From: a virus
Taxonomy: Duplodnaviria > Caudoviricetes
Strand: one strand, 5' to 3'
IMG/VR virus record: IMGVR_UViG_3300025121_000066
Span: 1-54,276 of that record
Length of the DNA: 54,276 bases
Part shown: positions 5,227-35,174 of the stretch, piece by piece
How the letters are laid out: each line of letters begins with the position of its first letter
Position numbering within the stretch: position 1 is the stretch's first letter
Position numbers and translations under genes: made by a program
Notes under the pieces: generated by a model
What the model was told of the DNA's origin: nothing
Seen by the model: the letters and a program-made list of their open reading frames with translations, nothing else
Database searches by the model: none

Positions 5227-5599
5227 AGAATTTATGTTTGAAAAATATGATTTAAAAATTCAATACGACATTGATAATATGGATAATGATTTTATTAAAA
5301 AATTAGAAAATGAATTATCTTTTCTTTATAGAAAAAGAAAAGAAAGATATATTAGACCACATAGAATTGTAGGTTCAATGGGTGATGAAATTGATTTAAG
5401 ATTAAATATGACTAATAAAGATATTTTATTAATTAATTTTAAAGATGAAGAATTAAAAGTTACTATTAATGGAGATATTATTTATCATATGGACGAATTT
5501 AAAAAAGAAGATGTGATAGAAAAGGTAGAAAAATTATATAGAAAATATATTGAACAACAAAACTTTACTGTTATGAAAAAAATAAATCCTTTTAAATAA
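5216..5599 (+). CDS. hypothetical protein
   Basis: MNFKEFMFE N-terminus. Confidence 0.6.
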   Translation: MNFKEFMFEKYDLKIQYDIDNMDNDFIKKLENELSFLYRKRKERYIRPHRIVGSMGDEIDLRLNMTNKDILLINFKDEELKVTINGDIIYHMDEFKKEDVIEKVEKLYRKYIEQQNFTVMKKINPFK

Positions 5600-5629
5600 T
5601 GAAAAAATATTGTATAGTTCATGATTGAA

Positions 5630-6031
5630 TTATACTTTAATAATCCCTTTTAATGATGCTTTTTTTAATCCTTGTAAAAATCTAAATCTACGTAACTCAG
5701 GTAAATTGCTAATTCCGTTTACTTTTGATAATTTTTTATCAATATGATTTGGTACACTAATTTTATCCCAACCATTTATATTCATTAATTTAATTATTTT
5801 ATCTATGAAATTATAATAATCCGGATACATATCAATCATTCTTCTACGACTTTTTAACATATCTAATGTATAAATTGCGGTATTAGTATTTTGTTTTATA
5901 GGTTTATTTGGTTTTTTAGGAACATTATCATAATTATACATATCAGCATTATCATTACCTTTATATAAATTATCTAATTGTTCTGGGGTAAGAAAATTTT
6001 CTTTTAAAAATTCACTGAAACTTATAATCAT
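5630..6031 (-). CDS. hypothetical protein
   Basis: MIISFSEFLKE N-terminus; TATATA motif upstream. Confidence 0.6.
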   Translation of the reverse strand: MIISFSEFLKENFLTPEQLDNLYKGNDNADMYNYDNVPKKPNKPIKQNTNTAIYTLDMLKSRRRMIDMYPDYYNFIDKIIKLMNINGWDKISVPNHIDKKLSKVNGISNLPELRRFRFLQGLKKASLKGIIKV

Positions 6032-6107
6032 TATAATATTTTTATTTTTATATATAAAATATAAAACTCATTGAAAAATAAGTTAATTATAAAAAAATTA
6101 AAAATAA

Positions 6108-6422
6108 ATGAAAATAAAAAGATTTAATGAATTATTTGAAAATATATCTGAAAATGAAGTTGTTTCTTTTTTAAAAAAGCAAATGGAAAAAGATAAAAAA
6201 GAATATACAGGTGATATTCCTACAAAATATAATCCTGGTAGTACTTGGGATGATAGAAATTGGATTGTAGATGAAATACTACAATTTTTACAAAATGATT
6301 ATACTACTTCGTACATACTTCAAAAATTTAGTGAAAAATATACATATGACGAATTAGATAATATTTTGAAGAATAATTTTGATTCTGAATATAGATATTC
6401 AAAAAAACTAATAGATGGTTAA
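6108..6422 (+). CDS. hypothetical protein
   Basis: MKIKRFNELFE N-terminus. Confidence 0.6.
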   Translation: MKIKRFNELFENISENEVVSFLKKQMEKDKKEYTGDIPTKYNPGSTWDDRNWIVDEILQFLQNDYTTSYILQKFSEKYTYDELDNILKNNFDSEYRYSKKLIDG

Positions 6423-9893: not shown

Positions 9894-11681
9894 ATGATTA
9901 ATAATCAATCAATTTTAAAAAATGACGATGTAAGTAATTCAGTAAGAACGAGATACGCACCAAGCCCTACGGGACCAAATCATATTGGAGGTGTTAGAAC
10001 AGCACTTTATAATTACTTATTTGCTAAAAAGCATGGTGGTAAATTTATTTTAAGAATAGAAGATACTGATAGTAAACGATTTGTACCAGGTGCAGAAGAA
10101 TATATTATTGAATCTTTTAAATGGTTAGGATTAGATTTTGATGAAGGTCCAAATGTAGGTGGTTCGTATGGTCCGTATAAACAATCCGAACGTAAAAATA
10201 TCTATAAAGATTATGCTTTAATGTTAATTAATAAAGGTTTAGCATATTATGCATTTGATAGTTCAGATGATTTAGATCAAGCAAGAAAAATAGATAGTCA
10301 TTTTTCATATGATTATAATAGTAGAAAATCATTAAAGAATTCATTAACATTATCACAAGAAGAAGTTAAACATTTAACTGAAACATCTAATAATTGGACT
10401 ATTAGAATTAAATATCCTGATCAACCAACTACAATAGTAGTTAATGATATTATTAGAGGTGTTGTTAAAGTTGAATCTGATACACTTGATGATAAAGTTA
10501 TTTGGAAATGTATTGATCAATTACCAACATATCATTTAGCAAATATTGTTGATGATCATTTAATGAAAATTTCGCATGTAATTAGGGGTGAAGAATGGTT
10601 GCCATCTGCACCATTACACGTTTATTTATACGAATGCTTTGATTGGGTTCCTCCATTATTTGCACATTTACCTTTAATTCTTAAACCAGAAGGAAATGGT
10701 AAATTAAGTAAAAGAGATGGTGATTTATTAGGATTTCCTGTATTTCCTTTGGAATGGATTGATCCAAGTGGTGATGAAAGTAAAAATTCAAAAGGATATA
10801 GAGGTGAAGGATATTTACCTAAAGCAGTTTTAAATTTTCTTGTATTTTTGGGTTGGAATCCAGGAACAGAAAAAGAAGTTTATTCATTAGATGAATTAAT
10901 TCAAGATTTTTCTTTAGAAAGAGTTAATAAAGGTGGTGCTAGATTTAATCCAACAAAAGCAAATTGGTTTAATGCACAATATTTGAAAAAAACTGATACT
11001 GAACTATTAGTTGATTATTTTAAATCTGATTTAGAAAAAAGAGGAATTTATAAAGATGACGATTTCATTTTTAAAGTAGTTGATAAGTATAAAGGTAAGG
11101 TTGATTTTATTAAGAATCTTTATGATGAAGTTAAATTTATTTTTGATAAACCAATTGATTTTGATAAAAAATCATTAAAAAAATGGAAATATAATTCAGA
11201 TAAAATTGTTAAAGATTTTGTTAATAAATTGAGTAATTTAAATGATTGGTTTGCTAATGATATTCAAAATATTTTTAATAATTATACTATTAACAACAAT
11301 ATCAATACTAATGAATTAGCATCAGTTTTAAGATTATTATTAACTGGTAAAGCAAGTGGTACATCTCCATTTGATACAATGGAGATTATTGGTAAAATAG
11401 ATACATTAGATCGTTTAACTAAACACAATTTATCTACAGATACTAATATATCTAACTTAGATAATAATGTTGATAATATTAAAAAACAAAAAATTAATCA
11501 ATTATCGGCTGAATTAGATGGTTCTAAAAAATCATTAAAATCTACAGAAGGTAAATTAAGCAATGTAAATTTTATGGAAAAAGCACCAAAAGATGTAGTT
11601 GATAACGAAATAATTAAAAAGGATGAATTAATTTTAAAGATTTCTAAAATAGAAAAAGAATTATTTGAATTACAAGCATAG
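9894..11681 (+). CDS. gltX: glutamyl-tRNA synthetase with extra ValRS-like C-terminal coiled-coil arm
   Basis: RYAPSPTG.HIGG, LRIEDTD, PTYHLANIVDDH, HVIRGEEW, KLSKR; tail KLSNVNFMEKAPKDVV resembles the ValRS tRNA-binding arm. Confidence 0.95.
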   Translation: MINNQSILKNDDVSNSVRTRYAPSPTGPNHIGGVRTALYNYLFAKKHGGKFILRIEDTDSKRFVPGAEEYIIESFKWLGLDFDEGPNVGGSYGPYKQSERKNIYKDYALMLINKGLAYYAFDSSDDLDQARKIDSHFSYDYNSRKSLKNSLTLSQEEVKHLTETSNNWTIRIKYPDQPTTIVVNDIIRGVVKVESDTLDDKVIWKCIDQLPTYHLANIVDDHLMKISHVIRGEEWLPSAPLHVYLYECFDWVPPLFAHLPLILKPEGNGKLSKRDGDLLGFPVFPLEWIDPSGDESKNSKGYRGEGYLPKAVLNFLVFLGWNPGTEKEVYSLDELIQDFSLERVNKGGARFNPTKANWFNAQYLKKTDTELLVDYFKSDLEKRGIYKDDDFIFKVVDKYKGKVDFIKNLYDEVKFIFDKPIDFDKKSLKKWKYNSDKIVKDFVNKLSNLNDWFANDIQNIFNNYTINNNINTNELASVLRLLLTGKASGTSPFDTMEIIGKIDTLDRLTKHNLSTDTNISNLDNNVDNIKKQKINQLSAELDGSKKSLKSTEGKLSNVNFMEKAPKDVVDNEIIKKDELILKISKIEKELFELQA

Positions 11682-12069: not shown

Positions 12070-13062
12070 TTAAAAGTTAAATATCGAACTTAATATTGAT
12101 AATCTTTTATTAATTGGTGGCAATCCAAGTGGTTCAATGAATTTATTTACTATACTTAAAATGGTTTTATCAAATTGTTCATCTATATCAATTTTAACCT
12201 TTTCCTTTTCAACTATTTCTATTGGATGAAAACTTCTTAAATATCCGAATACTTCATTAATAGGATGTTTACAATAATAATATTTAATTCTACCAGATTT
12301 AATCATATCATATTTAGTTTTAAATTCACTATTCTTATTCAATAGATAATTATGGAAACATGCAGCTTTAACACCATAATGAGCACCTTTTACTGTATTT
12401 ACACCCATTGTATCATCTAAAACTTTTATATTATAATTTGTACAGCTAGTAGTCATACTGATATCTTCTATATCTGTTAATTCAAATTCCTTTTTAAGTT
12501 GTTTAACAATTTTTAATACTTCATAAATGTTTAAATTACCTGGATTAGAAAATAAATAATTTATAACTCTATAAATATTTTTTCTTACAAATGGTGGAGT
12601 AGATGATCTAATAATTTCTATTCCCTTTGGATAAAAATATGATAATGATTCATAATTAACACCATCTTCCCAAACTATATTATTTAGGTAATGCTTCTTT
12701 TTTAAAAATAGAGCAGACTTACTAATTGTTTCTAATTCAAAATCGTGTAAATTATGAACATGATATTGTGCAGCATAATCATCTAAAAATTTATCAAAAA
12801 GAGGTTTAATAAAAATATGATCAACGTGAATTATAAAATTTTTAGTTAATGTATCATTTTCATTAGGGTTAAACCCAACAGATTTCATTAATGGTGTCAT
12901 AGAAACATATAGACTATTATGTACTAAAATATCATTTGCTATAAATGTATGTGTATCATCATTTACTTCTATATCATATACGTATTCTTCTTCAAATTCA
13001 CCAATCATTTCACATGATTCCACATCATCAAAAATATATTCTATATCGTCTATCTTATTCAT
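12070..13062 (-). CDS. polB: C-intein fused to C-terminal (palm/thumb) part of family B DNA polymerase
   Basis: first 49 aa end VYDIEV...FIANDILVHN, then SLYV; KKKHY and PKGIEIIRSSTP PolB motifs. Confidence 0.92.
   Translation of the reverse strand: MNKIDDIEYIFDDVESCEMIGEFEEEYVYDIEVNDDTHTFIANDILVHNSLYVSMTPLMKSVGFNPNENDTLTKNFIIHVDHIFIKPLFDKFLDDYAAQYHVHNLHDFELETISKSALFLKKKHYLNNIVWEDGVNYESLSYFYPKGIEIIRSSTPPFVRKNIYRVINYLFSNPGNLNIYEVLKIVKQLKKEFELTDIEDISMTTSCTNYNIKVLDDTMGVNTVKGAHYGVKAACFHNYLLNKNSEFKTKYDMIKSGRIKYYYCKHPINEVFGYLRSFHPIEIVEKEKVKIDIDEQFDKTILSIVNKFIEPLGLPPINKRLSILSSIFNF
12916..13062 (-). mobile_element. split intein, C-fragment (49 aa, acidic)
   Basis: block F VYDIEV and block G HN followed by +1 Ser. 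Confidence 0.92.
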
Positions 13063-13064
13063 TT

Positions 13065-14126
13065 TTATATAATATTATTCATTTTTTCAATTAAATTATC
13101 ATCATATCTAATAATTATGTAATTTATATAATTATTATTACAGTAAGTTTGTTTAATTAAATTTTGAATATATTTTAATGTTTTTTCACCACCAAAGTAA
13201 TCTATTGGTTCATAGTGTTGTTTTCCATTATATTCTATACACAAATTATATTCAGGTAAGTAAAAATCAAAATATAGAGGCAATTTGTTTATGCAATATT
13301 CAAACGTCTTTTGATATTTAAAATTAATATTATTATTTTCTAAAAATAACATAATTTGTTTTTCTCCTTTTGAACTTTTACAATAAGGACAACCTTGTTT
13401 GGAATTAATATGATCTTTTGGGTTTTGTTTAAATATACCATGTTTTTTACATATAATTTTAACTTTGGTATAACTATTAATATAATTAACTAATGAATAA
13501 TCATAAATATTATTATGTATTTTATTAGATTTTTCTATGAAAGATTTTTTATTATCACAAAATTTTTCATATTTACATTTTGGACAACCTTGACCTAATA
13601 TATGTTGTGTTGGTCGTTGTTCAAATTCACCGTGTTTTGGACAAATTATTTTAATTTTAACTGTACTACCTTCATATTTTACTAATGAATAATCATAAAT
13701 ATTATTATGTATTTTATTAGATTTTTCTATAAAAATATGTTCATTATATCTGTTAGCACATTTTGGGCAACCACATTTTTCATTAATATGATTATCTGGA
13801 GTTTGTTTAAATTCACCATGAATTGAGCAAATGATTTTAACTTTTGTTTTTGCATTAATATATTTAAGTAAAGAATAATCATATTTATCATTATGAATTT
13901 TTTTAGATTCTTTTATAAATTCTTCTGTTGTTTTTACTTTACTTCCTCCACATATTTGACAACCTCTACCCGATAAATGCTTTGCTGGAATTTGTTCAAA
14001 TATACCGTGTTCTTTACATATTATTTTAATTTTGGTTCGATTATTAATATAATTAACTAGACAATAATTGTATCTATCACCGTGAATTTTTAATGATTTA
14101 TTTATAAATATTTTAGTTTTAGTCAC
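13065..14126 (-). CDS. free-standing endonuclease between the intein halves (4 Zn-ribbon repeats + Vsr/DUF559-like nuclease domain)
   Basis: repeats YDYSLVxY...KIICxxHGxFxQxPxxH...GCPxC; C-terminal FDFYLPEYNLCIEYNGKQHY; GTG start. Confidence 0.85.
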   Translation of the reverse strand: MTKTKIFINKSLKIHGDRYNYCLVNYINNRTKIKIICKEHGIFEQIPAKHLSGRGCQICGGSKVKTTEEFIKESKKIHNDKYDYSLLKYINAKTKVKIICSIHGEFKQTPDNHINEKCGCPKCANRYNEHIFIEKSNKIHNNIYDYSLVKYEGSTVKIKIICPKHGEFEQRPTQHILGQGCPKCKYEKFCDNKKSFIEKSNKIHNNIYDYSLVNYINSYTKVKIICKKHGIFKQNPKDHINSKQGCPYCKSSKGEKQIMLFLENNNINFKYQKTFEYCINKLPLYFDFYLPEYNLCIEYNGKQHYEPIDYFGGEKTLKYIQNLIKQTYCNNNYINYIIIRYDDNLIEKMNNII

Positions 14127-14151: not shown

Positions 14152-14511
14152 TTATTTTTTTCTGATTATTAAAATTTTATCAGTTTTTAATACTTCAGAT
14201 GGTTTTACTTCTATTTTTTCACCATTTCTAAATACAATCATAGAGTGATCATTAGTTACTATTATTTCTTTACCTGTTTTTGTTTTTAATTTCCATTTAG
14301 ATTTAGTTACTTTATGTCTTATAATTCGTTTAACTGGTGCATAATATAAACCTTTTTCTTCACAATAATTTAATATATTATCATTACATTTAACAGATTC
14401 ATGTCCTTTCAATGTTATGCCATTAGAACCATTTTTAATATTTTTATTATATAATTCTTCAATTGTTGAATTACCATTAATAGTATATATAGTAGAATTT
14501 TTATCGACACT
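14152..14511 (-). mobile_element. split intein, N-fragment (119 aa, Ser1)
   Basis: starts at Ser right after YGDTD; block B TxDH (VTNDHS); ends at stop with no terminal HN. Confidence 0.9.
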
Positions 14512-15087
14512 ATCAGTATCACCATATATAACTATTTGATTTTCACCAGTATATTTTTGTCTACCTTCTAAAGTTGTCCAAATAGGGTTTTCATCTAAAG
14601 GATTAACATTTTTAAAATCCCAGATATTATATTGATACATTATTTGAATATCATCGTGTTCAAATTCATATACTTCTAAATCGTCTAAACTAATTTCTTT
14701 ATGTTTAAATAAATCGTTTAATGTATCATGTTTCCAACCTATAATTTTGAAATCCATAGAAAGACATACAAATTTTTCATCCATTTTACCGATATATTCT
14801 ACACCTAACATATCGTGTTTTTTAATATCATTATGCCAATTATTATAAAAATATAATTCAATTCTTTCCATCATAAATTGATTTACATCTCTTCCATGAG
14901 CTGTAATTGAATTAGCAATATCAGCATTAGAACACACAAAATACTTATTAGCAAATGCACCATAAGTTCCGTTAAGTGTTAACTTCAAGGCTAATTGCAT
15001 AGCTTTTGCATAGTCGTGTTCCTTTTTCTTATTATCTATTAGAATTTTTAATTCGTTAATTCTTTGTTTTTTTTGTCTATCGTCCAT
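14152..15087 (-). CDS. polB: family B DNA polymerase fragment (fingers/motif B to motif C) fused to N-intein
   Basis: QLALKLTLNGTYG (motif B), YGDTD (motif C), then intein SVDKNSTI...TNDHSMIV. Confidence 0.92.
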   Translation of the reverse strand: MDDRQKKQRINELKILIDNKKKEHDYAKAMQLALKLTLNGTYGAFANKYFVCSNADIANSITAHGRDVNQFMMERIELYFYNNWHNDIKKHDMLGVEYIGKMDEKFVCLSMDFKIIGWKHDTLNDLFKHKEISLDDLEVYEFEHDDIQIMYQYNIWDFKNVNPLDENPIWTTLEGRQKYTGENQIVIYGDTDSVDKNSTIYTINGNSTIEELYNKNIKNGSNGITLKGHESVKCNDNILNYCEEKGLYYAPVKRIIRHKVTKSKWKLKTKTGKEIIVTNDHSMIVFRNGEKIEVKPSEVLKTDKILIIRKK

Positions 15088-15125: not shown

Positions 15126-16727
15126 TTAAAAAAATGTTTTAAAAATAAATTTATAATTTCCAGAATTATAAATACGATAAATTTTACGTTCTAACATAAT
15201 TTCTTTACTTGTTTTATTTTTATCAAATCCTTGTTTTATTAAATTACTTTTTCTAAAATTAAATCTATGTTTTCTGATATTATCAACTATATAATAATGA
15301 TTAGGTGGTGTTAAACTATCTATATTAAATCCTAATTTTTTATACAAATTTCCGTTAGAATAACTTCTATCTGCATAACTTGATATATATTCTGGATTAT
15401 ATTCTTTAATAAAATGTTTAAATAATTTTGAAGCTCCACCAATAACATTAGTATTTAATTTATTACAAAATCTTATAAGTTCAAATTTATTATCTGTTGA
15501 TTTTAAATTCATCATTTTTCTTAATTTACCAAAAGTCATTAAACTAACTAATTCATTTTCAAAAAATAATCCTAACTTAATTGATGATCCTACAAAGCCT
15601 TGAATATGATTTTTATTTAAGAAATTTTTAACTAATTTATTATCAGTTATCTCTCTTATTTCAGTTTTTCTTGCAAATATTCTATTTGATGATTTTTTGA
15701 ATTTATTTAAAATCATTGATTTGACTATATCTTTTTTAAATTCCCAATCATCTTCATAAATATGAATTAATTGAATTCCTTTTTCTTCACATAAATCAGA
15801 TTTATTTTTATGATAATTTTTATCTTTATTTAATTCATTATGCCAATATAATCCATTAAATTCGAATGCTAACTTTAAATCAGGTAGATAAATATCTAAT
15901 TCATATGGTTTTATTATTTTTTTACTATTTTCGACAATTTCGTCTTTATAGTTTTCTTTTATAAAATTTAATAATTGTTTTTCTATTTGTGATATATTCA
16001 TAAACCCAATAGGATTACAATTTAAACACAATTCATTATCGTATAAAATTCTTAATTGTAATAAATTTGAATTAATTAAATAATATTGATTACATTTATC
16101 ACATTTTAATTTATACTTATCATCAATCTTATCGATAATGATTAAATTATGTTTTTCTTTATAAATTTTTATAGAGTTATTAAATTTAGTAATTGAATTA
16201 CTTTTTTGAATTTTATTTTTAAAATAATCTAATTCTGATATATGATTAACACCATACTTATTTTTAATAGTGTTATTTATTTTTTCTCTTATTATATTTG
16301 ATGATAATGCATAATCTGTACCATATACTTCATTACATGTATTTATATATTTAGGCATATTATTATAATTTTCATCACCATATTTTTCGAATTTAGTTTT
16401 TTTCCCCTTTTCTTTTATTGATTCTACTTTCATAGGATTATCAACACCATAATTAATATTAAATGTTTTTTTCTTTTTTATTGTTGAACATTTATGGCAA
16501 GTATAAAAACCATATCTTTCATAATTGTCCATATATTTATTATATGTTAATTGTTTTTCATCATTACAATTTAAACATTTAATATTAATTAAAGCTCTAC
16601 TATTTCTAGGCAAATCATCTATTTTAACTTTTATTATATTATGTAAATCCACATTATAACCCTTATCTTTATAATATGATATATTTCTATATGACATTTT
16701 TATATCTATTGTTTTATCTAAAATCAT
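15126..16727 (-). CDS. Hef-like/Vsr-like homing endonuclease with N-terminal Zn-ribbons and YGV repeats
   Basis: ELDIYLPDLKLAFEFNGLYWH...IQLIHIYEDDW...RIFARK...NHIQG...GGASKLF...SYADRS; start reassigned to MILDKT. Confidence 0.8.
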   Translation of the reverse strand: MILDKTIDIKMSYRNISYYKDKGYNVDLHNIIKVKIDDLPRNSRALINIKCLNCNDEKQLTYNKYMDNYERYGFYTCHKCSTIKKKKTFNINYGVDNPMKVESIKEKGKKTKFEKYGDENYNNMPKYINTCNEVYGTDYALSSNIIREKINNTIKNKYGVNHISELDYFKNKIQKSNSITKFNNSIKIYKEKHNLIIIDKIDDKYKLKCDKCNQYYLINSNLLQLRILYDNELCLNCNPIGFMNISQIEKQLLNFIKENYKDEIVENSKKIIKPYELDIYLPDLKLAFEFNGLYWHNELNKDKNYHKNKSDLCEEKGIQLIHIYEDDWEFKKDIVKSMILNKFKKSSNRIFARKTEIREITDNKLVKNFLNKNHIQGFVGSSIKLGLFFENELVSLMTFGKLRKMMNLKSTDNKFELIRFCNKLNTNVIGGASKLFKHFIKEYNPEYISSYADRSYSNGNLYKKLGFNIDSLTPPNHYYIVDNIRKHRFNFRKSNLIKQGFDKNKTSKEIMLERKIYRIYNSGNYKFIFKTFF

Positions 16728-16852
16728 AATTCGTTTTTTGTTTTTATATATAAAATACAAATGCACCGAAAGTAGCATTTAATATAATGTATAACTTATG
16801 AAAAAAAATGTTTTTATTTTTTTATATATACATTAAAATATAAATAATTTTT

Positions 16853-21813: not shown

Positions 21814-22014
21814 ATGGAAACAAAATATTCAGATGAAGAAATAATAACTGTGATTAAAAAACTTCAAAAAAATCCAGATATTAATAACAATTTAATACAC
21901 TATAAACTTTTTCATCATATTAACAAAGGTCATTGGATAATAGATATGAATAAAGTATTAGAAAAAAATAGAATAAATCTAAGAAGAAAAAAAATAAATA
22001 AATTAAAAATATGA
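21814..22014 (+). CDS. hypothetical protein with basic C-terminal motif
   Basis: ends LRRKKINKLKI; ATGA overlap with nusG. Confidence 0.55.
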   Translation: METKYSDEEIITVIKKLQKNPDINNNLIHYKLFHHINKGHWIIDMNKVLEKNRINLRRKKINKLKI

Positions 22015-22556
22015 ATGCAAAATGGTATGTAATTAGAACCGTAAACGGAAAAGAAAGAAAAGCTAAAGAAATGCTTGAATTTGAATTACGTGAACGGGGA
22101 TATATGGATAAAATTGAACAAATTGTTATTCCTCTTGAAAAAGTGTTACAAACACGAAAAGGAAAAAAATATGTAATAGAAAAAAATTATTATCCTGGTT
22201 ATATTCTTATTGAAGCTGATCCTAGTATTATAGGTGAATTAAAAGGACTTAATAAAGTAGTTAATTATATTATTGGTTTCTTAGGTGATAATAATCCACA
22301 AGCCTTAAGTCAATCAGAAGTAAATAGAATTTTAGGTAAAATGGATGAATTAACTATGAGTGATAGTGTCATTCTTGATAAATTTATTGTTGGTGAAAAA
22401 GTTAAAATTATTGATGGTCCTTTTCAATCATTTATCGGAACAGTTAATAAAGTTATGGAAGAAAAACAAAAACTCGAACTTATTATTAAAGTGTTCGAAA
22501 GAGAAACTCCAATTGAATTATCTTATGAAAAAGTTAACCGTAATATAACAGTTTAA
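22011..22556 (+). CDS. nusG: transcription termination/antitermination factor NusG
   Basis: KWYVIRTVNGKE, YYPGYILIE, KOW GEKVKIIDGPFQSFIGTV, VFERETPIEL. Confidence 0.95.
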   Translation: MNAKWYVIRTVNGKERKAKEMLEFELRERGYMDKIEQIVIPLEKVLQTRKGKKYVIEKNYYPGYILIEADPSIIGELKGLNKVVNYIIGFLGDNNPQALSQSEVNRILGKMDELTMSDSVILDKFIVGEKVKIIDGPFQSFIGTVNKVMEEKQKLELIIKVFERETPIELSYEKVNRNITV

Positions 22557-28775: not shown

Positions 28776-28808
28776 AAAAAAGACCAATTATAAATAATTG
28801 GTCTTTTT
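28776..28808 (-). terminator. intrinsic terminator after RNase P RNA
   Basis: AAAAAGACCAATTA-TAAA-TAATTGGTCTTTTT with T-runs on both strands. Confidence 0.8.
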
Positions 28809-28812
28809 ATTT

Positions 28813-29031
28813 TTGAGAAATGAGCGTAGCCAGAATTCTGTTAATAAAACTAATTAAAGTTTTAAGTGTTATCATTTGTCTATTTGCCCCAACCTTACCA
28901 TTATAGTGTAGCTCACCCACTAAGCTTTTTCGGGTTGCATCCTCGGCAGTACTAACGATTTTAATCTCCTGCCTTCAGCTAAGATGTTCTGAACTTCCTC
29001 TCCGTAGAGCGATAACCCCTCTGTTTCTCAA
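28813..29031 (-). ncRNA. rnpB: RNase P RNA, minimal form (catalytic domain only, S-domain reduced)
   Basis: P1 UUGAGAAA/UUUCUCAA; P2 GUUAUC/GAUAAC; P3 CUC-UACG-GAG; CR-I GAGGAAGUUCAGAA pairs CR-V ACAGAAUUCUGGCUA (P4 with bulged U); P5 CAUC/GAUG-CAA; L15 GGUAA; CR-IV UAGACAAAUGAU; P19. Confidence 0.9.
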
Positions 29032-31184: not shown

Positions 31185-31241
31185 TTTATTTTTAAATGTT
31201 TACTTATATAGAATCAATTACATAGTAAAATAACTTCATTG

Positions 31242-31327
31242 TACCCTGAGTGGGATTTGAACCCACATAGTATATTTCAACTGCCAGTTCCTAAAACTGG
31301 TGCGTCTGCCGATTCCGCCACCAGGGC
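31242..31327 (-). tRNA. tRNA-Leu(TAG)
   Basis: GCCCTGG/TCAGGGT acceptor, CCAGT-TTTAGGA-ACTGG, long V arm, TTCAAAT T-loop. Confidence 0.92.
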
Positions 31328-31355
31328 ATTCATTTGTTATATTGTAACTTTGTTG

Positions 31356-31435
31356 TACCCAAGGTGGGACTTGAACCCACATACCTTTCGGCACTGGTTT
31401 CTTAGGCCAGCATGTCTGCGTTCCATCACTCGGGC
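31356..31435 (-). tRNA. tRNA-Leu(AAG), atypical
   Basis: CTGGC-CTAAGAA-ACCAG (C.A at 31-39), V arm TGCC-GAAA-GGTA, D-loop lacks GG. Confidence 0.75.
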
Positions 31436-31437
31436 AT

Positions 31438-31653
31438 TTATTTTATATTATAATCTCCCCACCATTTATGAACTGCATTGTAAGGAACTACATCTGCTTT
31501 TTGTCCTTCTTTTGGTTCATCGTAAAATTTTAAACACCAATATCCACTCTTATGTACTATATAAAATGTTACCCTATCATATGCATCATATTCTGTATAA
31601 CAATAATCGTCTGATACATGTCTTACACTTTTCCCATTTTTATATTTTGTCAT
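31438..31653 (-). CDS. hypothetical protein within tRNA region
   Basis: MTKYKNGK...; own promoter directly upstream. Confidence 0.55.
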   Translation of the reverse strand: MTKYKNGKSVRHVSDDYCYTEYDAYDRVTFYIVHKSGYWCLKFYDEPKEGQKADVVPYNAVHKWWGDYNIK

Positions 31654-31669
31654 AATTTCTAATTTTACA

Positions 31670-31701
31670 CAAAAATACAAAAAATTATTGAATTATACAA
31701 A
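31670..31701 (-). promoter_or_regulatory. Bacteroidota-type promoter
   Basis: TTTG, 20-nt spacer, TATTTTTG on minus strand. Confidence 0.6.
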
Positions 31702-31704
31702 ATA

Positions 31705-31738
31705 AAGAACACAATATATTAAGGTATATTGTGTTCTT
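31705..31738 (-). terminator. hairpin, probable terminator after tRNA-Gly
   Basis: AAGAACACAATATA-6nt-TATATTGTGTTCTT, 14-bp stem. Confidence 0.6.
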
Positions 31739-31742
31739 ATTG

Positions 31743-31817
31743 AGCATCGTGTCGGGTTCAAACCGACCCTATTCTGCGGTGGAAGCGCAGTGCCATAATC
31801 AACTAGGCGAACGATGC
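31743..31817 (-). tRNA. tRNA-Gly(TCC)
   Basis: GCATCGT/ACGATGC, U73, CTGCG-CTTCCAC-CGCAG; T-loop TTTGAAC, D-loop GA instead of GG. Confidence 0.85.
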
Positions 31818-32522
31818 ATTATATTCTTGTATTAAATTTTCATATGTTAATTTCTTTAATTGATTTCTATATCTTTGTCTTTCACTTCTACCATTTCCAT
31901 TATTTAAAGATCCAAATGTTTTTGTTAATGAATGACAACTAGGACACAATAAATCTAAATTTTCTTCTAAATTATTTTTACTATTTCCATCTTTATGTTC
32001 AACTTGTAAAGGAATTTTATTTGTATAAGGATTTATTTTATTCCATCCACATTCAGTACATTTGCTATTATATTTTTTAAATAAATATTTTCTTATATAT
32101 GTAGATAATCCACTTCCAGATATTCCATTTTCTTCACCATTTTTCCACCTTTTTATATATTCATTATATTCATAATCACATTGACATTTATCACTACAAT
32201 ATTTTTTTTGTCTTCCTTCTAAATTTTTATCACAACATACACAATTTTTAATTTTCTTTTTTTTCTTTTTATTATTAAAAGATGCTGAACAACTTTTACT
32301 ACAAAATTTTCTTTCGTCTCTATCACTTATAATTTCTGTTTGGCAATTTAAACAAAAAAATATTTTAGTTTCTTTATAATCACTACTTTTTATTCCTAAT
32401 CTAAAACACTTTGATCTAATTGATTGATTTGTAGTTTCAAATATATTAGCAATTTCATCATAAGTATAACCATTTGTAATATATTGAATTAATTCTTTTA
32501 TACTTTCTTCTGTCCATTTCAT
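31803..32522 (-). CDS. HNH homing endonuclease
   Basis: CTECG...LQVEHKDGNSKNNLEENLDLLCPSCH; N-terminal HTH and KFCSKSC Zn fingers; start reassigned to MKWTEE (longer ORF runs through tRNA genes). Confidence 0.88.
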   Translation of the reverse strand: MKWTEESIKELIQYITNGYTYDEIANIFETTNQSIRSKCFRLGIKSSDYKETKIFFCLNCQTEIISDRDERKFCSKSCSASFNNKKKKKKIKNCVCCDKNLEGRQKKYCSDKCQCDYEYNEYIKRWKNGEENGISGSGLSTYIRKYLFKKYNSKCTECGWNKINPYTNKIPLQVEHKDGNSKNNLEENLDLLCPSCHSLTKTFGSLNNGNGRSERQRYRNQLKKLTYENLIQEYNASFA

Positions 32523-32583
32523 AATTTTATATCTTTTTTTATTATATATAAAATTTGAGCGGTCTGTTTTTTTTAATTTTTTG

Positions 32584-32657
32584 AGCGAATGACGGGACTT
32601 GAACCCGCAAACCTTCTGCTTGGCAAGCAGACTATCTACCAATTGATATACATTCGC
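32584..32657 (-). tRNA. tRNA-Gly(GCC)
   Basis: GCGAATG/CATTCGC, U73, TCTGC-TTGCCAA-GCAGA, TTCAAGT. Confidence 0.92.
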
Positions 32658-32662
32658 GTTTG

Positions 32663-32753
32663 AGCAGGTAGTGAGATTCAAACTCACGTTGTAGGCATTA
32701 ATGCCATTTCTGGATTGGAAGTCCAGCGCCATCGACCACTAGGCGACACCTGC
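32663..32753 (-). tRNA. tRNA-Gly(TCC) with long variable arm
   Basis: GCAGGTG/TACCTGC, U73, CTGGA-CTTCCAA-TCCAG, V region AAATGGCATTAATGCCTACAAC. Confidence 0.85.
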
Positions 32754-32763
32754 AAAAATTTTA

Positions 32764-32891
32764 AAAAATGATTTAAATATTAGGGAAAATTATTATCGTC
32801 TTTAATTCCACATAGATTGCGATTCTACATGTATTTCCCTTTGTAAAGATTGAAATGAAAAATAGTAAACTATTAACATTAAATCATTTTT
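32764..32891 (-). ncRNA. putative structured RNA between tRNA-Met and tRNA-Gly
   Basis: 13-bp terminal stem AAAAATGATTTAA/TTAAATCATTTTT enclosing AGGGAAA/TTTCCCT and CATGTAGA/TCTATGTG stems. Confidence 0.4.
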
Positions 32892-32892
32892 G

Positions 32893-32975
32893 TTGCGACG
32901 ACTGGTTTCGAACCAGCGGTACCCGAAGGATCTTGGATATGAGCCAAGTGCAATTGACCACTCTGCCACGTCGCA
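32893..32975 (-). tRNA. tRNA with CAT anticodon (Met, or lysidine-Ile) and long variable arm
   Basis: TGCGACG/CGTCGCA, CTTGG-CTCATAT-CCAAG, V region ATCC-TTCG-GGTACC, TTCGAAA. Confidence 0.85.
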
Positions 32976-32980
32976 ATATT

Positions 32981-33160
32981 AAAGTCTTTTTGTCCATTTT
33001 CAGTGAAATACCATTACGTTTTTGGATTGGTCCTGCCGTAACTTATGTATCTTTACAATAAACATCAACTGCTGAATCAGTCTATAATGATGTAGTTTTT
33101 CCTGGCTTTACAAGATTTCTAACTCTTACATTACTGTTTATCTTCAAGCAAAAAGACTTT
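32981..33160 (-). ncRNA. putative 180-nt structured RNA
   Basis: 12-bp terminal stem AAAGTCTTTTTG/CAAAAAGACTTT; central ACATCA/TGATGT + ACTG/CAGT hairpin; fills the spacer exactly. Confidence 0.45.
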
Positions 33161-33166
33161 GTGTTT

Positions 33167-33904
33167 TTAAATTATTTTTAAATCTTTTAATTCTTTTCTT
33201 TTCCATATAAGTAATGGTTCTTTAAATTGTGACCATTTACATTCATCTAAATCTGTTTGATATCCTTTAACTTCTAAATATGTATTCCAATCATGAATAT
33301 AAAAATCGGGACAATATGTTGATTTTTTATCTTTTAAATTAATATATTTAAATCTTTTTTTATTACGTTCCCATTTTACATTTATATTATCCAAATATTT
33401 AGCAACGCCTAATTCCCAACTACCATCTACTTTAATAATTCCTGCTATTGGGCTAGTATAATCATATTTAGGTGCTCTTCCACATTTTACTTCCCATCCA
33501 TTATCATATCTTTCTAATATTTTTTTTCGGATTTTTTTACATCTAATTTCTTCTTTTTCAGGTGTCGATCCTAATCCAGATGATGTAAATCCTCCTTTAC
33601 GACTACCTTCTATATATGATTCATATTTATCTGGTGAAAGAATGTCTTTCATTTTTTTACCTTTATTCCATCCTTGACCTTTTCCTATATTTAATCTTCT
33701 ACGTCTTGGTCCTCTACTATCACAACTATTTACATGTTTTTCTATAGATGATTTTATTTCAAAATTACATTTTGGACATATAAATATTTTTTTATTTTGT
33801 TTTTCCAAATCTGTTTTTGTTCCAAACCCATCACAATAATTTTCGTGATTAGATTTACCAGCTTTATTTTTAAATTCTTTATTACATTTGCTACAATTAT
33901 ACAT
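33167..33904 (-). CDS. PD-(D/E)XK (TnsA-N-like) free-standing endonuclease with N-terminal Zn fingers
   Basis: GSWELGVAKYLD...YCPDFYI...YLEVKGY; CSKC..H..C and CPKC..H..C. Confidence 0.8.
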   Translation of the reverse strand: MYNCSKCNKEFKNKAGKSNHENYCDGFGTKTDLEKQNKKIFICPKCNFEIKSSIEKHVNSCDSRGPRRRRLNIGKGQGWNKGKKMKDILSPDKYESYIEGSRKGGFTSSGLGSTPEKEEIRCKKIRKKILERYDNGWEVKCGRAPKYDYTSPIAGIIKVDGSWELGVAKYLDNINVKWERNKKRFKYINLKDKKSTYCPDFYIHDWNTYLEVKGYQTDLDECKWSQFKEPLLIWKRKELKDLKII

Positions 33905-33971
33905 AATAACTATTATTTTTTATTATATATAAAAATCATACAGGTCTAAAATTACCACTTTAAATATACTG

Positions 33972-34056
33972 CGGAGGACAAGGGAATTGAACCCTCGGAT
34001 CGTGAGACCAGATATTTAGCAGATACCCGCAACTAACCAACATTTGCCTATCCTCC
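33972..34056 (-). tRNA. tRNA-Ser(GCT)
   Basis: GGAGGAT/GTCCTCC, G73, GGTAT-CTGCTAA-ATATC, long V arm. Confidence 0.9.
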
Positions 34057-34073
34057 TTTTGTGTTTATAGTTG

Positions 34074-34153
34074 TGGAACTGGTGGGATTCGAACCCACGT
34101 TTTCGACCCTGCGTGCAAGGCAGGCGCTTACGGCCAAACTGAGCTACAGCCCC
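34074..34153 (-). tRNA. tRNA-Ala(TGC)
   Basis: GGGGCTG/CAGTTCC with G3:U70, CCTGC-CTTGCAC-GCAGG, 9-nt variable region. Confidence 0.92.
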
Positions 34154-34445
34154 AAAACTGCTACTTTTTTTAAAGGAAATCAACAAAACCATTTGTGGAA
34201 TGTTGCGGAATTTCATCGTCATGCCAATTGTCATAATACTATACAACCGTGAGGATTTTAATACCCCTTCACCCCATATTTTAAAGTGAAGGATAATATA
34301 ACTTCTTCATCAGAAATCATATTACCTATTTAGATAACCTAAGTTCGGTCTACACCTCAAACGATATCAAACCCCCTGTAGGTTAGGTAATTTATCGTAC
34401 TTAGTTAAAAATACCGTGAATATTTCTATGTTGTCTAATACTTCG

Positions 34446-34518
34446 TACCTCGGGTGGAACTCGAATCCACAGTCGCAAGTTTAGAAAACTTGTGCTTTTT
34501 CCATTAAGCTACCAAGGC
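34446..34518 (-). tRNA. tRNA-Arg(TCT)
   Basis: GCCTTGG/CCGAGGT, CAAGT-TTTCTAA-ACTTG, TTCGAGT. Confidence 0.92.
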
Positions 34519-34536
34519 ATTTTTGTGTTTTTAGAG

Positions 34537-34622
34537 AACCCCATGCGAGACTCGAACTCGCATGTCATTTCCAATTACTCGTTTAACGACACTGTTTAGA
34601 AGACTGTTGAGAATAATGGGGC
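34537..34622 (-). ncRNA. rearranged tRNA-like RNA with TCT anticodon loop
   Basis: acceptor GCCCCAT/ATGGGGT and perfect T-arm GCGAG-TTCGAGT-CTCGC; no D-arm in normal position; 29-nt insert after anticodon arm. Confidence 0.7.
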
Positions 34623-34663
34623 TTGTGTTTTTATTGTACTTACATAGTAAGACAACTTCGTTG

Positions 34664-34736
34664 TACCCTTAACAAGATTCGAACTTGTACAAAAAATTTA
34701 GGAAATTAATATGCTTCTCCATTACATCATAAGGGC
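34664..34736 (-). tRNA. tRNA-Arg(CCT), weak anticodon stem (possibly degenerate)
   Basis: GCCCTTA/TAAGGGT, TTAAT-TTCCTAA-ATTTT (two T.T mismatches), TTCGAAT. Confidence 0.7.
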
Positions 34737-34742
34737 ATTTTG

Positions 34743-34815
34743 AACCCCCTATGAGATTTAAACTCATAACCTCTCGGGCCGTAACCGAGTGCTCCGTTCG
34801 TTAAGCTAAGGGGGC
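34743..34815 (-). tRNA. tRNA-Arg(ACG)
   Basis: GCCCCCT/AGGGGGT, CTCGG-TTACGGC-CCGAG; T-loop TTTAAAT, D-loop lacks canonical GG. Confidence 0.82.
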
Positions 34816-34847
34816 TTATGTTTTTCATAATTAATTTTATATTTTTG

Positions 34848-34921
34848 TCTAGGTGGCGGGCTACGATCCCACGACATCCACATCCCAAATGTGGCATTCT
34901 ACCTGGCTGAATTACACCTAG
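34848..34921 (-). tRNA. tRNA-Pro(TGG)
   Basis: CTAGGTG/CACCTAG, A73, CCACA-TTTGGGA-TGTGG. Confidence 0.9.
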
Positions 34922-34930
34922 AAAACACAC

Positions 34931-34946
34931 AATACGTCAAAGAACT
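34931..34946 (-). promoter_or_regulatory. boxA-like antitermination element
   Basis: AGTTCTTTGACGTATT; related copies at 35061-35076 and 35178-35191. Confidence 0.55.
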
Positions 34947-34975
34947 TTTCATTGATAAATCAATGAAACTTAATG

Positions 34976-35061
34976 CTGTCCAGGTAGGGTTCAAACCTAC
35001 AAATTCCTCACGGAACACCAGATCCAAAATCTGGCGCGTTTATCAATTCCGCCACTGGACA
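34976..35061 (-). tRNA. tRNA-Gln(TTG) with long variable arm
   Basis: TGTCCAG/CTGGACA (U1-A72), G73, CCAGA-TTTTGGA-TCTGG, V arm TTCC-GTGA-GGAA, Leu-like D-arm. Confidence 0.85.
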
Positions 35062-35079
35062 ATATTTTAAAGAACTAAT

Positions 35080-35095
35080 TGTTCCACGTGGAACA
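35080..35095. promoter_or_regulatory. parS: parS-like centromere palindrome
   Basis: perfect TGTTCCACGTGGAACA, identical to 25939-25954. Confidence 0.8.
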
Positions 35096-35100
35096 AGTTG

Positions 35101-35174
35101 GGTGATATGTGGGTTACGATCCCACTACCTTCTGCGCCACAAGCAGACACTCTACCGATTGAGCTAATACCACC
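35101..35174 (-). tRNA. tRNA-His(GTG)
   Basis: encoded G-1 and C73, TCTGC-TTGTGGC-GCAGA. Confidence 0.92.

What the first reader, a model, noticed from the sequence alone, without database searches (positions are those of the whole stretch)
28813..29031. Phage-encoded minimal RNase P ribozyme lacking the specificity domain
Seen: the catalytic-domain helices can be drawn (P1, P2, P3 with cUACGg loop, P4 with bulged U, P5, a P6 pseudoknot UAGCU/AGCUA into the P16 loop, P15 with GGUAA, P19). The S-domain is reduced to a ~30-nt GGCAG/CUGCC hairpin and P18 is absent; total ~219 nt versus roughly 350-400 nt for usual bacterial rnpB. It has its own terminator and lies 2 kb downstream of the tRNA array on the same strand. 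Established: the S-domain reads the tRNA D/T-loop elbow. Inference: several array tRNAs have non-canonical elbows (missing GG; TTTGAA, TTTAAA or ATCGTA T-loops), so an elbow-independent RNase P could be what matures them, probably borrowing host RnpA.
Basis: partly seen in the sequence, partly recalled or inferred. Interest (0 to 1): 0.85.

Follow-up and report, generated by a model that had tools for sequence, protein, structure and literature searches.

The report
Huge-phage miniature RNase P ribozyme gene
A fragment of a very large phage carries a roughly 219-base gene for a stripped-down version of RNase P RNA, the ribozyme that trims transfer RNAs, and the same miniature form recurs next to tRNA genes in dozens of other large phage genomes.

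Summary
On the minus strand at 29031..28813 lies a 219-nt RNA with the catalytic core of bacterial type A RNase P RNA: P1-P5, P6 pseudoknot, P15-P17, CR-I, CR-IV and CR-V. P18 is missing and the specificity domain is a 29-nt hairpin.

Rfam gives only a sub-threshold, full-length match to RNaseP_arch (26.4 bits, cut-off 84).

Pattern scans plus a covariance model found the same form in 43 viral loci, and I aligned 31 distinct sequences. Of all cells, 93.5% pair, against 35-46% when partners are slid. P4 and P6 were not in the model and pair at 90.2%.

In 24 of 35 loci the gene sits beside tRNA genes. All 205 of those tRNAs are on its strand.

Two of 12 whole or near-whole phage records also encode an RnpA protein.

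Nine literature searches found no report of a phage RNase P RNA. No RNA data or activity test was available.

Verdict: a real, apparently undescribed phage variant of RNase P RNA.

The parts
28813..29031 (-). Miniature RNase P RNA gene (219 nt)
   Evidence: RF00373 matches 28818-29025 at 26.4 bits, E 1.1e-5, over the full model. Family model R1 gives 171.4 bits over 28813-29031.
28987..29000 (-). CR-I (GAGGAA) and the 5' strand of P4, with bulged U at 28993
   Evidence: GAGGAA is present in 30-31 of 31 family sequences. P4 pairs in 98.3% of cells and 5 of 8 pairs show double changes.
28828..28842 (-). CR-V (AACAGAA) and the 3' strand of P4
   Evidence: ACAGAA was not required by scan 2, yet it is kept there, with variants ACAAAA, ACGGAA and ACAGGA.
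28873..28882 (-). CR-IV (UAGACAAAUG), running into the 3' strand of P2 (28868-28873)
   Evidence: Aligned to the CR-IV consensus of the Rfam model. P2 pairs in 96.7% of cells. The motif's invariance is partly by ascertainment, because both scans required it.
28977..28981 (-). P6 pseudoknot 5' strand (UAGCU); pairs with 28909-28913 in the P17 loop
   Evidence: 5 of 5 pairs show changes on both sides and 76.7% of cells pair, in a helix that was not part of the model.
28945..28973 (-). Remnant of the specificity domain: a 5-bp stem, a conserved asymmetric internal loop and a 3-bp stem
   Evidence: Helices 7 and 8 pair in 91.7% and 96.2% of cells. Loop bases G63, A65, C75, A82 and C83 are kept in 26-29 of 31 sequences.
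28888..28938 (-). J5/15 GCAA, P15, P16, P17 and the L15 loop, with conserved G-G-U at 28892-28894
   Evidence: P15 pairs in 97.8%, P16 in 100% and P17 in 85.8% of cells. G-G-U is present in 31, 30 and 31 of 31 sequences, and G138 and U140 are invariant (G139 in at least 90%) in the 13 sequences whose scan did not require it.
28846..28863 (-). P19-like hairpin between the P2 3' strand and CR-V
   Evidence: Read directly from the sequence. Most relatives have 3-5 nt at this position. A few have 8-16 nt (L047, L050, L053, L062).
28777..28808 (-). Terminator-like hairpin (14 pairs) followed by a T-run, 4 nt after P1
29047..29922 (-). GIY-YIG homing-endonuclease gene that ends 16 nt before the RNA gene
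   Evidence: phrog_314 at 117.5 bits. PF01541 at 22.6 bits, exactly at its cut-off.
31241..35173 (-). Array of 14 tRNA genes on the same strand, the presumed substrates

Best explanation
The gene encodes the catalytic RNA subunit of a phage RNase P. It descends from bacterial type A RNase P RNA. It keeps the whole active-site scaffold: P1-P5, the P4 helix with its bulged U, CR-I, CR-IV and CR-V, J5/15, the P15-L15 loop with G-G-U, and the P6 pseudoknot. It has lost P18 and all of the specificity domain except one short hairpin with a conserved internal loop.

It is transcribed in the same direction as the phage's tRNA array. In the window it has its own terminator. In several relatives it sits inside the array, with a tRNA starting 3-5 nt after its 3' end.

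Inferred mechanism: the RNA binds a bacterial-type RnpA protein. That protein is the host's in most phages and a phage-encoded one in at least two. The complex cleaves the 5' leaders from the phage's pre-tRNAs, and probably from its tmRNA where one is present. This gives the phage its own tRNA-maturation capacity during infection.

Shown here: homology, structure, conservation, gene context, and co-occurrence with RnpA in two genomes. Inferred: transcription, catalysis, the protein partner in the window's phage, and the benefit to the phage.
For: 1. Homology to RNase P RNA. RNaseP_arch matches over its full length in the window (26.4 bits, E 1.1e-5) and independently in LR756502.1 (32.4 bits, E 1.7e-7). 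The matched stretches are the GAGGAA, GCAA, UAG..AAUG and ACAGAA blocks of the consensus.

2. A real family.
- Model R1 hits 17 of 45 sources from the first two scans.
- It hits 26 of 27 new loci from a third scan whose pattern was independent of CR-I.
- It also hits three GenBank huge-phage genomes of 634-735 kb.

3. Covariation.
- On a plain MAFFT alignment of 13 sequences, 89.6% of cells pair against 35-46% when partners are slid. 47 of 56 pairs change on both sides, and 0 of 500 shuffles reach the observed values.
- On 31 sequences, 93.5% pair against 35-46%.
- P4 and P6 were left out of the model and still pair in 90.2% of cells, against 25-49% when slid.

4. Context. In 24 of 35 loci there are tRNA genes in the flanks: 205 on the RNA's strand and 0 on the other. 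In 5 loci a tRNA starts 3-5 nt after the RNA.

5. Protein partner. PF00825 RnpA ORFs occur in LR756502.1 (52 bits) and LR745206.1 (49 bits), both of which carry the RNA. Relatives of this RnpA lie on other contigs of 268-634 kb.

6. Not the cell's gene. The P18-less pattern found 13 loci in 185,579 species' genomes. Only two carried the mini form: a 548-nt contig flanked by tRNAs, and a 425-kb contig with the same length and R1 score as an IMG/VR viral contig.
Against: - No transcript or activity data exist. No RNA run holds the stretch.
- The Rfam score is far below the gathering threshold (26.4 against 84). RF00010, RF00011 and RF02357 give no match in the window.
- Ten of 12 whole or near-whole phage records have no recognisable RnpA, so the partner there is assumed.
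- From recalled biochemistry, catalytic-domain-only constructs of bacterial RNase P RNA are poor enzymes without the protein and bind pre-tRNA weakly.
- In two relatives (L037, L052) the gene is interrupted by a homing-endonuclease ORF, and in L050 by 432 nt of unknown sequence. Those copies may be inactive.
- Part of the motif invariance is built in by the search patterns.
- The promoter-like site upstream is no better than chance (5 found against 4.5 expected).
Confidence: 0.7

Rival explanations
1. The enzyme is specifically elbow-independent, and it exists because the phage's own tRNAs have non-canonical D/T-loop elbows that the host RNase P handles poorly.
For: The window has 6 of 14 tRNAs with TTTGAA, TTTAAA or ATCGTA T-loops. 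L006 has 11 of 24 and L053 has 7 of 23 non-canonical T-loops. The classical elbow-reading modules CR-II and CR-III are absent.
Against: - Across the family, 182 of 214 neighbouring tRNAs are canonical, and 14 of 24 loci have no odd T-loop at all. Examples are L005 (14/14), L037 (13/13) and L052 (12/12).
- L053, with many odd T-loops, has one of the longest S regions (96 nt).
- The S-hairpin's internal loop is conserved. It may be an elbow-contacting T-loop like the one modelled for the type T enzyme (PMC13462272).
Confidence: 0.1
2. Decoy or modulator. The RNA is not primarily a catalyst. It titrates host RnpA, or pre-tRNA 3' ends, to depress host tRNA maturation or to re-target the host enzyme.
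For: Most carriers lack their own RnpA (10 of 12 records), so the RNA must compete for the host protein. The regions that bind RnpA in bacterial holoenzymes (P3, CR-IV and CR-V, recalled) are retained.
Against: - Conservation extends to parts a protein decoy would not need: the P4 bulged U, J5/15 GCAA, the L15 G-G-U and the P6 pseudoknot.
- Two phages add their own RnpA, which builds an enzyme rather than starving one.
- The gene sits within tRNA arrays.
Confidence: 0.1
3. It is an RNase P-derived ribozyme with another main substrate, for example phage mRNA or operon processing, tmRNA, or its own release from tRNA-array transcripts.
For: tmRNA genes lie on the same strand in L020 and L039. Loss of the S-domain should loosen tRNA specificity (recalled biochemistry).
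Against: Co-orientation with tRNA genes is absolute (205 to 0) and often immediate. No other conserved neighbour was seen.
Confidence: 0.06
4. It is a decaying fragment of a host rnpB picked up by the phage, or the contigs are really small-genome cells and this is their own rnpB.
For: One carrier contig is filed as a Pacearchaeota MAG (L085). Published CPR bacteria have RNase P RNAs that lack P12, P13, P14 and P18 (PMC8172020, passages read). Some copies are interrupted.
Against: - Compensatory changes across 31 distinct sequences show purifying selection on the fold.
- Carriers include curated complete phage genomes (LR756501.1, LR756502.1, LR745206.1). They also include IMG/VR records with terminal repeats and 95-100% CheckV completeness.
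- The window has phage homing endonucleases and phage-type DNA polymerase pieces.
- No full-length RF00010 gene was found in 5 carrier genomes.
Confidence: 0.04

Closest known systems
Bacterial type A RNase P RNA (Rfam RF00010, rnpB / M1 RNA)
   Same: - Same order of helices: P1, P2, P3, P4, P5, P6, P15, P16, P17.
- CR-I, CR-IV and CR-V motifs, J5/15 GCAA, an AAACAG-type J15/16, and a G-G-U in L15.
- A bacterial RnpA partner gene in two carrier phages.
   Different: - About 200-220 nt instead of the model's 367 positions.
- The 154 model positions of the S-domain are replaced by a 41-124-nt hairpin region. The 24 positions of P18 are absent.
- It scores below every Rfam cut-off.
- It is encoded by phages, not cells.
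[quoted passage not shown]
   Same: A natural RNase P RNA of about 200 nt whose S-domain is reduced to essentially one stem. That stem is modelled as carrying a single T-loop that still meets the tRNA elbow (PMC13462272, passages read). The phage RNA has an analogous stem with a conserved internal loop.
   Different: - No match to RF02357 in the window.
- The phage RNA is of bacterial build, with an RnpA partner rather than Pop5, Rpp30, Rpp29 and L7Ae.
- The reduction is therefore convergent.
Diverged RNase P RNAs of CPR bacteria (Lui et al. 2021, PMC8172020)
   Same: Bacterial RNAs found only below Rfam thresholds. Some lack P12, P13, P14 and P18, and often the CCA-binding motif (passages read).
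   Different: They are cellular genes that still have an S-domain framework. The phage form keeps the L15 G-G-U but loses nearly the whole S-domain.
Engineered catalytic-domain-only bacterial RNase P RNAs (recalled from the literature, not checked here)
   Same: They show that a C-domain together with RnpA can cleave pre-tRNA, which makes the proposed activity plausible.
   Different: They are laboratory truncations. The phage form is a natural, conserved gene with an added conserved hairpin.
Theta (HDV-like) ribozymes beside tRNAs in gut phages (PMC10879173, listing and abstract only)
   Same: A phage-encoded ribozyme physically linked to phage tRNA genes.
   Different: A small self-cleaving ribozyme unrelated to RNase P. 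It acts in cis.

Membership tests
RNase P RNA (Rfam clan CL00002, universal core) | P4 helix formed between CR-I and CR-V, with a bulged U | tested here: met
   Window RNA 37-38 and 40-45 pair with 197-204, and U39 is bulged. P4 pairs in 98.3% of cells and 5 of 8 pairs change on both sides, in a helix that was not in the model.
RNase P RNA (Rfam clan CL00002, universal core) | Conserved sequence blocks CR-I, CR-IV and CR-V | tested here: met
   Aligned to the consensus blocks. CR-IV invariance is partly forced by the search patterns.
RNase P RNA (Rfam clan CL00002, universal core) | Score at or above an Rfam gathering threshold | tested here: not met
   RF00373 gives 26.4 bits against a cut-off of 84. 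RF00010, RF00011 and RF02357 give no match at E<=10.
RNase P RNA (Rfam clan CL00002, universal core) | Cleaves pre-tRNA 5' leaders | not testable with these tools
   No RNA runs were listed and no biochemistry is available.
Bacterial type A RNase P RNA | P6 pseudoknot between J5/7 and the P17 loop | tested here: met
   5 of 5 pairs change on both sides and 76.7% of cells pair.
Bacterial type A RNase P RNA | P15/L15 internal loop with a G-G-U that reads the tRNA 3' end | tested here: met
   G-G-U is present in 31, 30 and 31 of 31 sequences. G138 and U140 are invariant (G139 in at least 90%) among the 13 sequences whose scan did not require it. Its function was not tested.
Bacterial type A RNase P RNA | Specificity domain P7-P14 with CR-II and CR-III | tested here: not met
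   Only 41 nt lie between the P5 strands in the window. Across 31 family rows the median is 52 nt; 30 rows span 41-124 nt, and the L050 row is a local alignment (2 nt) of a gene with a 432-nt insert.
Bacterial type A RNase P RNA | P18 between P15 and CR-IV | tested here: not met
   3-5 nt lie at that site in 31 of 31 aligned sequences. LR756501.1 alone has a 29-nt insert there.
Bacterial type A RNase P RNA | Works with an RnpA protein | tested here: inconclusive
   PF00825 is present in 2 of 12 whole or near-whole carrier records. There is none in the window fragment, which is about 13% of its genome.
[quoted passage not shown] | Match to RF02357 and archaeal build | tested here: not met
   No match at E<=10. 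The resemblance is in the reduced S-domain only.

The most novel reading that the evidence does not exclude
Large phages, including the largest phage genomes on record (634-735 kb), carry their own RNase P. It is a new, naturally minimised structural class of bacterial-lineage RNase P RNA, lacking P18 and with the S-domain reduced to one hairpin. In some phages it comes with a phage RnpA. It would be the first virus-encoded RNase P ribozyme. It would let these phages mature their tRNA arrays independently of, or in competition with, the host enzyme. The gene is also a recurrent target of GIY-YIG homing endonucleases.
Probability: 0.6. Interest if true: 0.9.

Novelty: new variant of a known kind. 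Interest (0 to 1): 0.85.

Why it matters
RNase P RNA is one of the few ribozymes shared by all cellular life, and I found no report of one encoded by a virus.

If active, a phage copy would add tRNA 5' maturation to the translation-related functions that huge phages bring with them, alongside tRNAs, aminoacyl-tRNA synthetases and tmRNA.

It would also be a natural experiment on a long-standing question: how little of the RNA is needed in the bacterial lineage. Evolution has here removed P18 and almost the whole specificity domain while keeping a small conserved hairpin. The only comparable natural case was found in hyperthermophilic archaea.

At about 200 nt with a single small protein partner, it would be an attractive minimal system for structure and mechanism work. 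Current annotation pipelines miss it entirely.

Tried and rejected
- Rfam at gathering thresholds found only tRNAs in the window.
- The single-sequence fold is not more stable than shuffles (z = -1.09), so folding energy says nothing either way.
- The sigma-70-like site ending at 29031 is no better than chance (5 found, 4.5 expected) and I did not use it.
- Pattern scan 1 gave 2 chance coding hits among 5 loci. In scan 2, 28 of the 45 sources searched had no strong model hit; L014 gave a weak 21.4 bits, which I treated as noise. In scan 3, L073 had no hit.
- In the genome-contig scan, 8 of 13 loci were chance and 3 were ordinary cellular RNase P RNAs.
- No RNA holder was listed for the window. 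All 15 runs are on record as DNA, from groundwater or soil.
- Group I or II intron as an explanation for the insertions: Rfam gave no match at E<=1 in L037 5250-6350. In L050 it gave only a weak RNase P match. The L037 insert is filled almost entirely by the endonuclease ORF, so an intron core is unlikely there. This remains unresolved.
- Trans-acting S-domain or a second full-length rnpB: no credible RF00010 match in 5 carrier genomes (only an 11.4-bit, 53-nt hit in LR756502.1, unrelated to the RNA locus).
- The T-loop comparison has no control set. The non-carrier loci held only 1 tRNA. My first offset-based count was wrong for loci other than the window, and I replaced it with the motif count.
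- Literature: nine searches returned no paper on a phage- or virus-encoded RNase P RNA. PMC7162821 has no occurrence of 'RNase P', 'ribonuclease P', 'rnpB' or 'ribozyme' in its main text. PMC12636597 uses RNase P only as a processing tool. PMC7191817 has no occurrence of phage, virus or viral.
The supplementary gene tables of PMC7162821 might list the RnpA genes.
- The metagenome-contig scan, structure prediction, complex prediction and the protein-atlas search were not used.

Full report
**What the window is.** The window is a whole IMG/VR virus record of 54,276 bases that CheckV rates 13% complete, so it is a fragment of a very large phage. Its genes fit that picture:
- homing endonucleases and pieces of a family B DNA polymerase with intein signatures;
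- a class I Glu/Gln-type aminoacyl-tRNA synthetase, a NusG-like protein, and NUDIX, PARG and NAD-synthetase-like proteins;
- 14 tRNA genes, all on the minus strand at 31241-35173.

The stretch occurs in DNA runs labelled groundwater and soil. No RNA run holds it.

**Checking the observation.** The feature is on the minus strand. I list the helices and coordinates under the observation check.

Rfam at its gathering thresholds reports only tRNAs. With permissive thresholds, the archaeal RNase P model aligns end to end to 29025..28818 at 26.4 bits and E 1.1e-5. It places the window's GAGGAA, GCAA, UAG-AC-AAAUG and AACAGAA on the model's conserved blocks.

The bacterial A, bacterial B and type T models give nothing. 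On its own that is a hint, not a proof.

**Relatives.**
- A blastn search of GenBank phages found one relative at 70.7% identity, in the 642-kb uncultured phage LR756502.1. That copy independently matches RNaseP_arch over its full length (32.4 bits, E 1.7e-7).
- Two pattern scans of IMG/VR that linked CR-I to CR-IV returned 5 and 41 loci.
- I built a covariance model (R1: 204 positions, 43 pairs, with P4 and P6 deliberately left out) from 13 of the sequences. It hit 17 of the 45 sources then in hand at 89.7-199.3 bits. The chance pattern hits gave essentially nothing.
- A third scan used a pattern that does not include CR-I or the S region: the P15 3' strand running straight into CR-IV, then CR-V. 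It returned 37 loci, 27 of them new, and 26 of the 27 matched R1.
- GenBank holds further copies in LR745206.1 (635 kb) and LR756501.1 (735 kb), at 138.4 and 129.7 bits.
- Many carrier contigs are 150-675 kb. Nine of them are rated 95-100% complete, and three have direct terminal repeats.

**Is the structure real?** On the plain MAFFT alignment of 13 sequences, with the helices as I drew them from the window:
- 89.6% of cells form standard pairs, against 35-46% when the 3' partners are slid by 1-3 columns;
- 47 of 56 pairs change on both sides;
- none of 500 shuffles reaches the observed values.

For the larger test I aligned 31 distinct sequences to R1. Of the 43 sources with hits I dropped 12: 9 rows with scores identical to another row, the interrupted L037 and L052, and the truncated L064. 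On that alignment the whole structure pairs at 93.5%, against 35-46% when slid.

That alignment is fitted to the model, so the fairest test is the two pseudoknot helices the model did not contain. P4 and P6 pair at 90.2%, against 25-49% when slid. P4 pairs at 98.3%, and all 5 pairs of P6 change on both sides.

Every helix of the bacterial type A catalytic domain is therefore supported by compensatory change. So are the two short stems of the S-hairpin (91.7% and 96.2%).

**What is kept and what is lost.**
- Kept in 29-31 of 31 sequences: GAGGAA of CR-I, the bulged-U context, GCAA of J5/15, an A-rich J15/16, G-G-U-U on the 3' side of L15, UAGA..AAUG of CR-IV and ACAGAA of CR-V.
- CR-IV was required by all scans, CR-I by scans 1-2, and GGTT and ACAGAA by scan 3, so part of this invariance is ascertainment. 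The blocks not required in a given scan are nevertheless kept there.
- Against the bacterial A model, the 24 positions between P15 and CR-IV (P18) are empty, and the 154 positions of the S-domain are replaced.
- In the window 41 nt lie between the two P5 strands. The family median is 52 nt (30 of 31 rows span 41-124; the L050 row is a local alignment). The median total length is 215 nt.
The first GGU is the 3' strand of P16, which pairs in 100% of cells. The conserved L15 G-G-U is at RNA 138-140.

**Context.**
- In 24 of 35 loci there are tRNA genes within the fetched flanks. All 205 lie on the RNA's strand and none on the other.
- In L069, L033, L039, L063 and L082 a tRNA begins 3-5 nt after the RNA's 3' end. 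In L006 and L039 the gene sits inside an array.
- In such copies, RNase P cleavage at the next tRNA would itself make the RNA's 3' end. That is an inference.
- The window's copy differs. It lies 2.2 kb downstream of the array, directly after a GIY-YIG homing-endonuclease gene, and ends at a terminator-like hairpin.
- tmRNA genes lie nearby in two loci.

**Protein partner.**
- LR756502.1 encodes a 101-residue RnpA (PF00825, 52 bits), and LR745206.1 encodes another (49 bits).
- Relatives of this protein sit on other contigs of 268-634 kb.
- The other 10 whole or near-whole carrier records have no PF00825 match at E<=1. Neither does the window fragment.
- At least some phages therefore carry a complete two-part bacterial-type RNase P. 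The rest presumably use the host protein, which I could not test.
- No full-length bacterial RNase P RNA or separate S-domain was found in five carrier genomes.

**Is it cellular after all?** The P18-less pattern found only 13 loci in one genome each of 185,579 prokaryote species:
- two ordinary bacterial A genes and one archaeal gene;
- eight chance hits;
- two copies of the mini form. One is on a 548-nt contig flanked by tRNAs. The other is on a 425,361-nt contig filed as an archaeal MAG, whose length and R1 score equal those of an IMG/VR viral contig.

Within the reach of that pattern, the mini form is a phage form.

Six of the window's 14 tRNAs do have non-canonical T-loops. Across the family, a simple motif count gives 182 canonical out of 214 tRNAs, and 14 of 24 loci have no odd T-loop. 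Odd elbows cannot be the general reason for the mini enzyme.

The S-hairpin is also conserved in its unpaired bases. A 2026 study models the equally small S-domain of the archaeal type T enzyme as a single stem whose T-loop still stacks on the tRNA elbow (PMC13462272, passages read). The phage loop (U78...A82 in the window's RNA, with U in 24 and A in 29 of the sequences) could play that role. This is analogy only.

**Prior knowledge.** Nine full-text searches gave no report of a phage- or virus-encoded RNase P RNA. The paper that published the three GenBank genomes does not mention RNase P in its main text. I could not see its supplements.

The nearest precedents are:
- type T archaeal RNAs;
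- the diverged CPR RNAs that lack P12, P13, P14 and P18 (PMC8172020, passages read);
- laboratory C-domain constructs (recalled);
- theta ribozymes beside phage tRNAs, as another ribozyme linked to phage tRNA genes (PMC10879173, listing only).

**Verdict.** Homology to RNase P RNA and selection on its fold are, in my judgement, near certain.

The remaining steps are well motivated but untested: that the RNA is made, that it binds RnpA, and that it cleaves phage pre-tRNAs. I put the overall reading at 0.7.

It is a new structural and biological variant of a known ribozyme. It is not a new kind of molecule.

Noticed in passing
L037:5288-6185 (+): The RNase P RNA gene is interrupted between the P2 3' strand and CR-V, at the position of the window's P19 hairpin. 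The insert is about 680 nt and is filled by a GIY-YIG/NUMOD3 homing-endonuclease ORF (5523-6146) whose stop codon abuts AACAGAA. No intron family matched.
   Followed up: partly
L052:7-856 (-): The RNase P RNA gene is in two pieces, 856-700 and 162-7. A GIY-YIG ORF (80-712, PF01541 at 36.9 bits) is inserted in the P15-P17 region. With L037 and the window's adjacent endonuclease gene, this suggests the gene is a recurrent homing site.
   Followed up: partly
L050:6294-6906 (+): This copy has a 432-nt insertion in the terminal loop of the S-hairpin. Rfam gives no match for the insert. It could be an unknown domain or an intron.
   Followed up: partly
L089:~3120-3150 (LR756501.1, 735-kb phage): This copy alone has a 29-nt insert between P15 and CR-IV, where P18 sits in bacterial RNAs. 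This genome has no PF00825 match.
   Followed up: no
window:12070-16778 (-): A family B DNA polymerase is read as two ORFs in different frames (14152-15087 and 12070-13062). Both have intein-splicing signatures. They flank a zinc-finger/DUF723 ORF (13065-14126). A large HNH homing-endonuclease ORF lies just upstream (15126-16778).
   Followed up: no
window:31241-35173 (-): All 14 tRNA sequences as ARAGORN reports them end in C. In 13 of 14 the next base is A, so the genes carry N-C-A rather than an encoded CCA. Two tRNAs, called Gly(tcc) (92 nt) and Gln(ttg) (87 nt), have long extra arms that are unusual for those identities.
   Followed up: no
L037:8144-8218; L039:9933-10005: tRNAs with a CUA anticodon (ARAGORN labels them 'Pyl') occur in two carrier phages. 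This suggests TAG is read as sense in some members.
   Followed up: no
L020:1263-1644; L039:5069-5412: tmRNA genes lie on the same strand as the mini RNase P RNA and the tRNAs.
   Followed up: no
L085 (JBBACR010000001.1, 425,361 nt): A contig deposited as a Candidatus Pacearchaeota MAG has the same length as the IMG/VR viral contig behind L069 and an identical R1 score (172.8 bits). It carries a dense same-strand tRNA array. It is probably a phage genome that was binned as a cell.
   Followed up: partly
window:28138-28701 (-), 9894-11681 (+), 22011-22556 (+): The window encodes a pyruvoyl-dependent arginine decarboxylase directly downstream of the RNA, a Glu/Gln-type aminoacyl-tRNA synthetase with an added Val-tRNA-synthetase-like C-terminal arm, and a NusG-like protein.
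   Followed up: no
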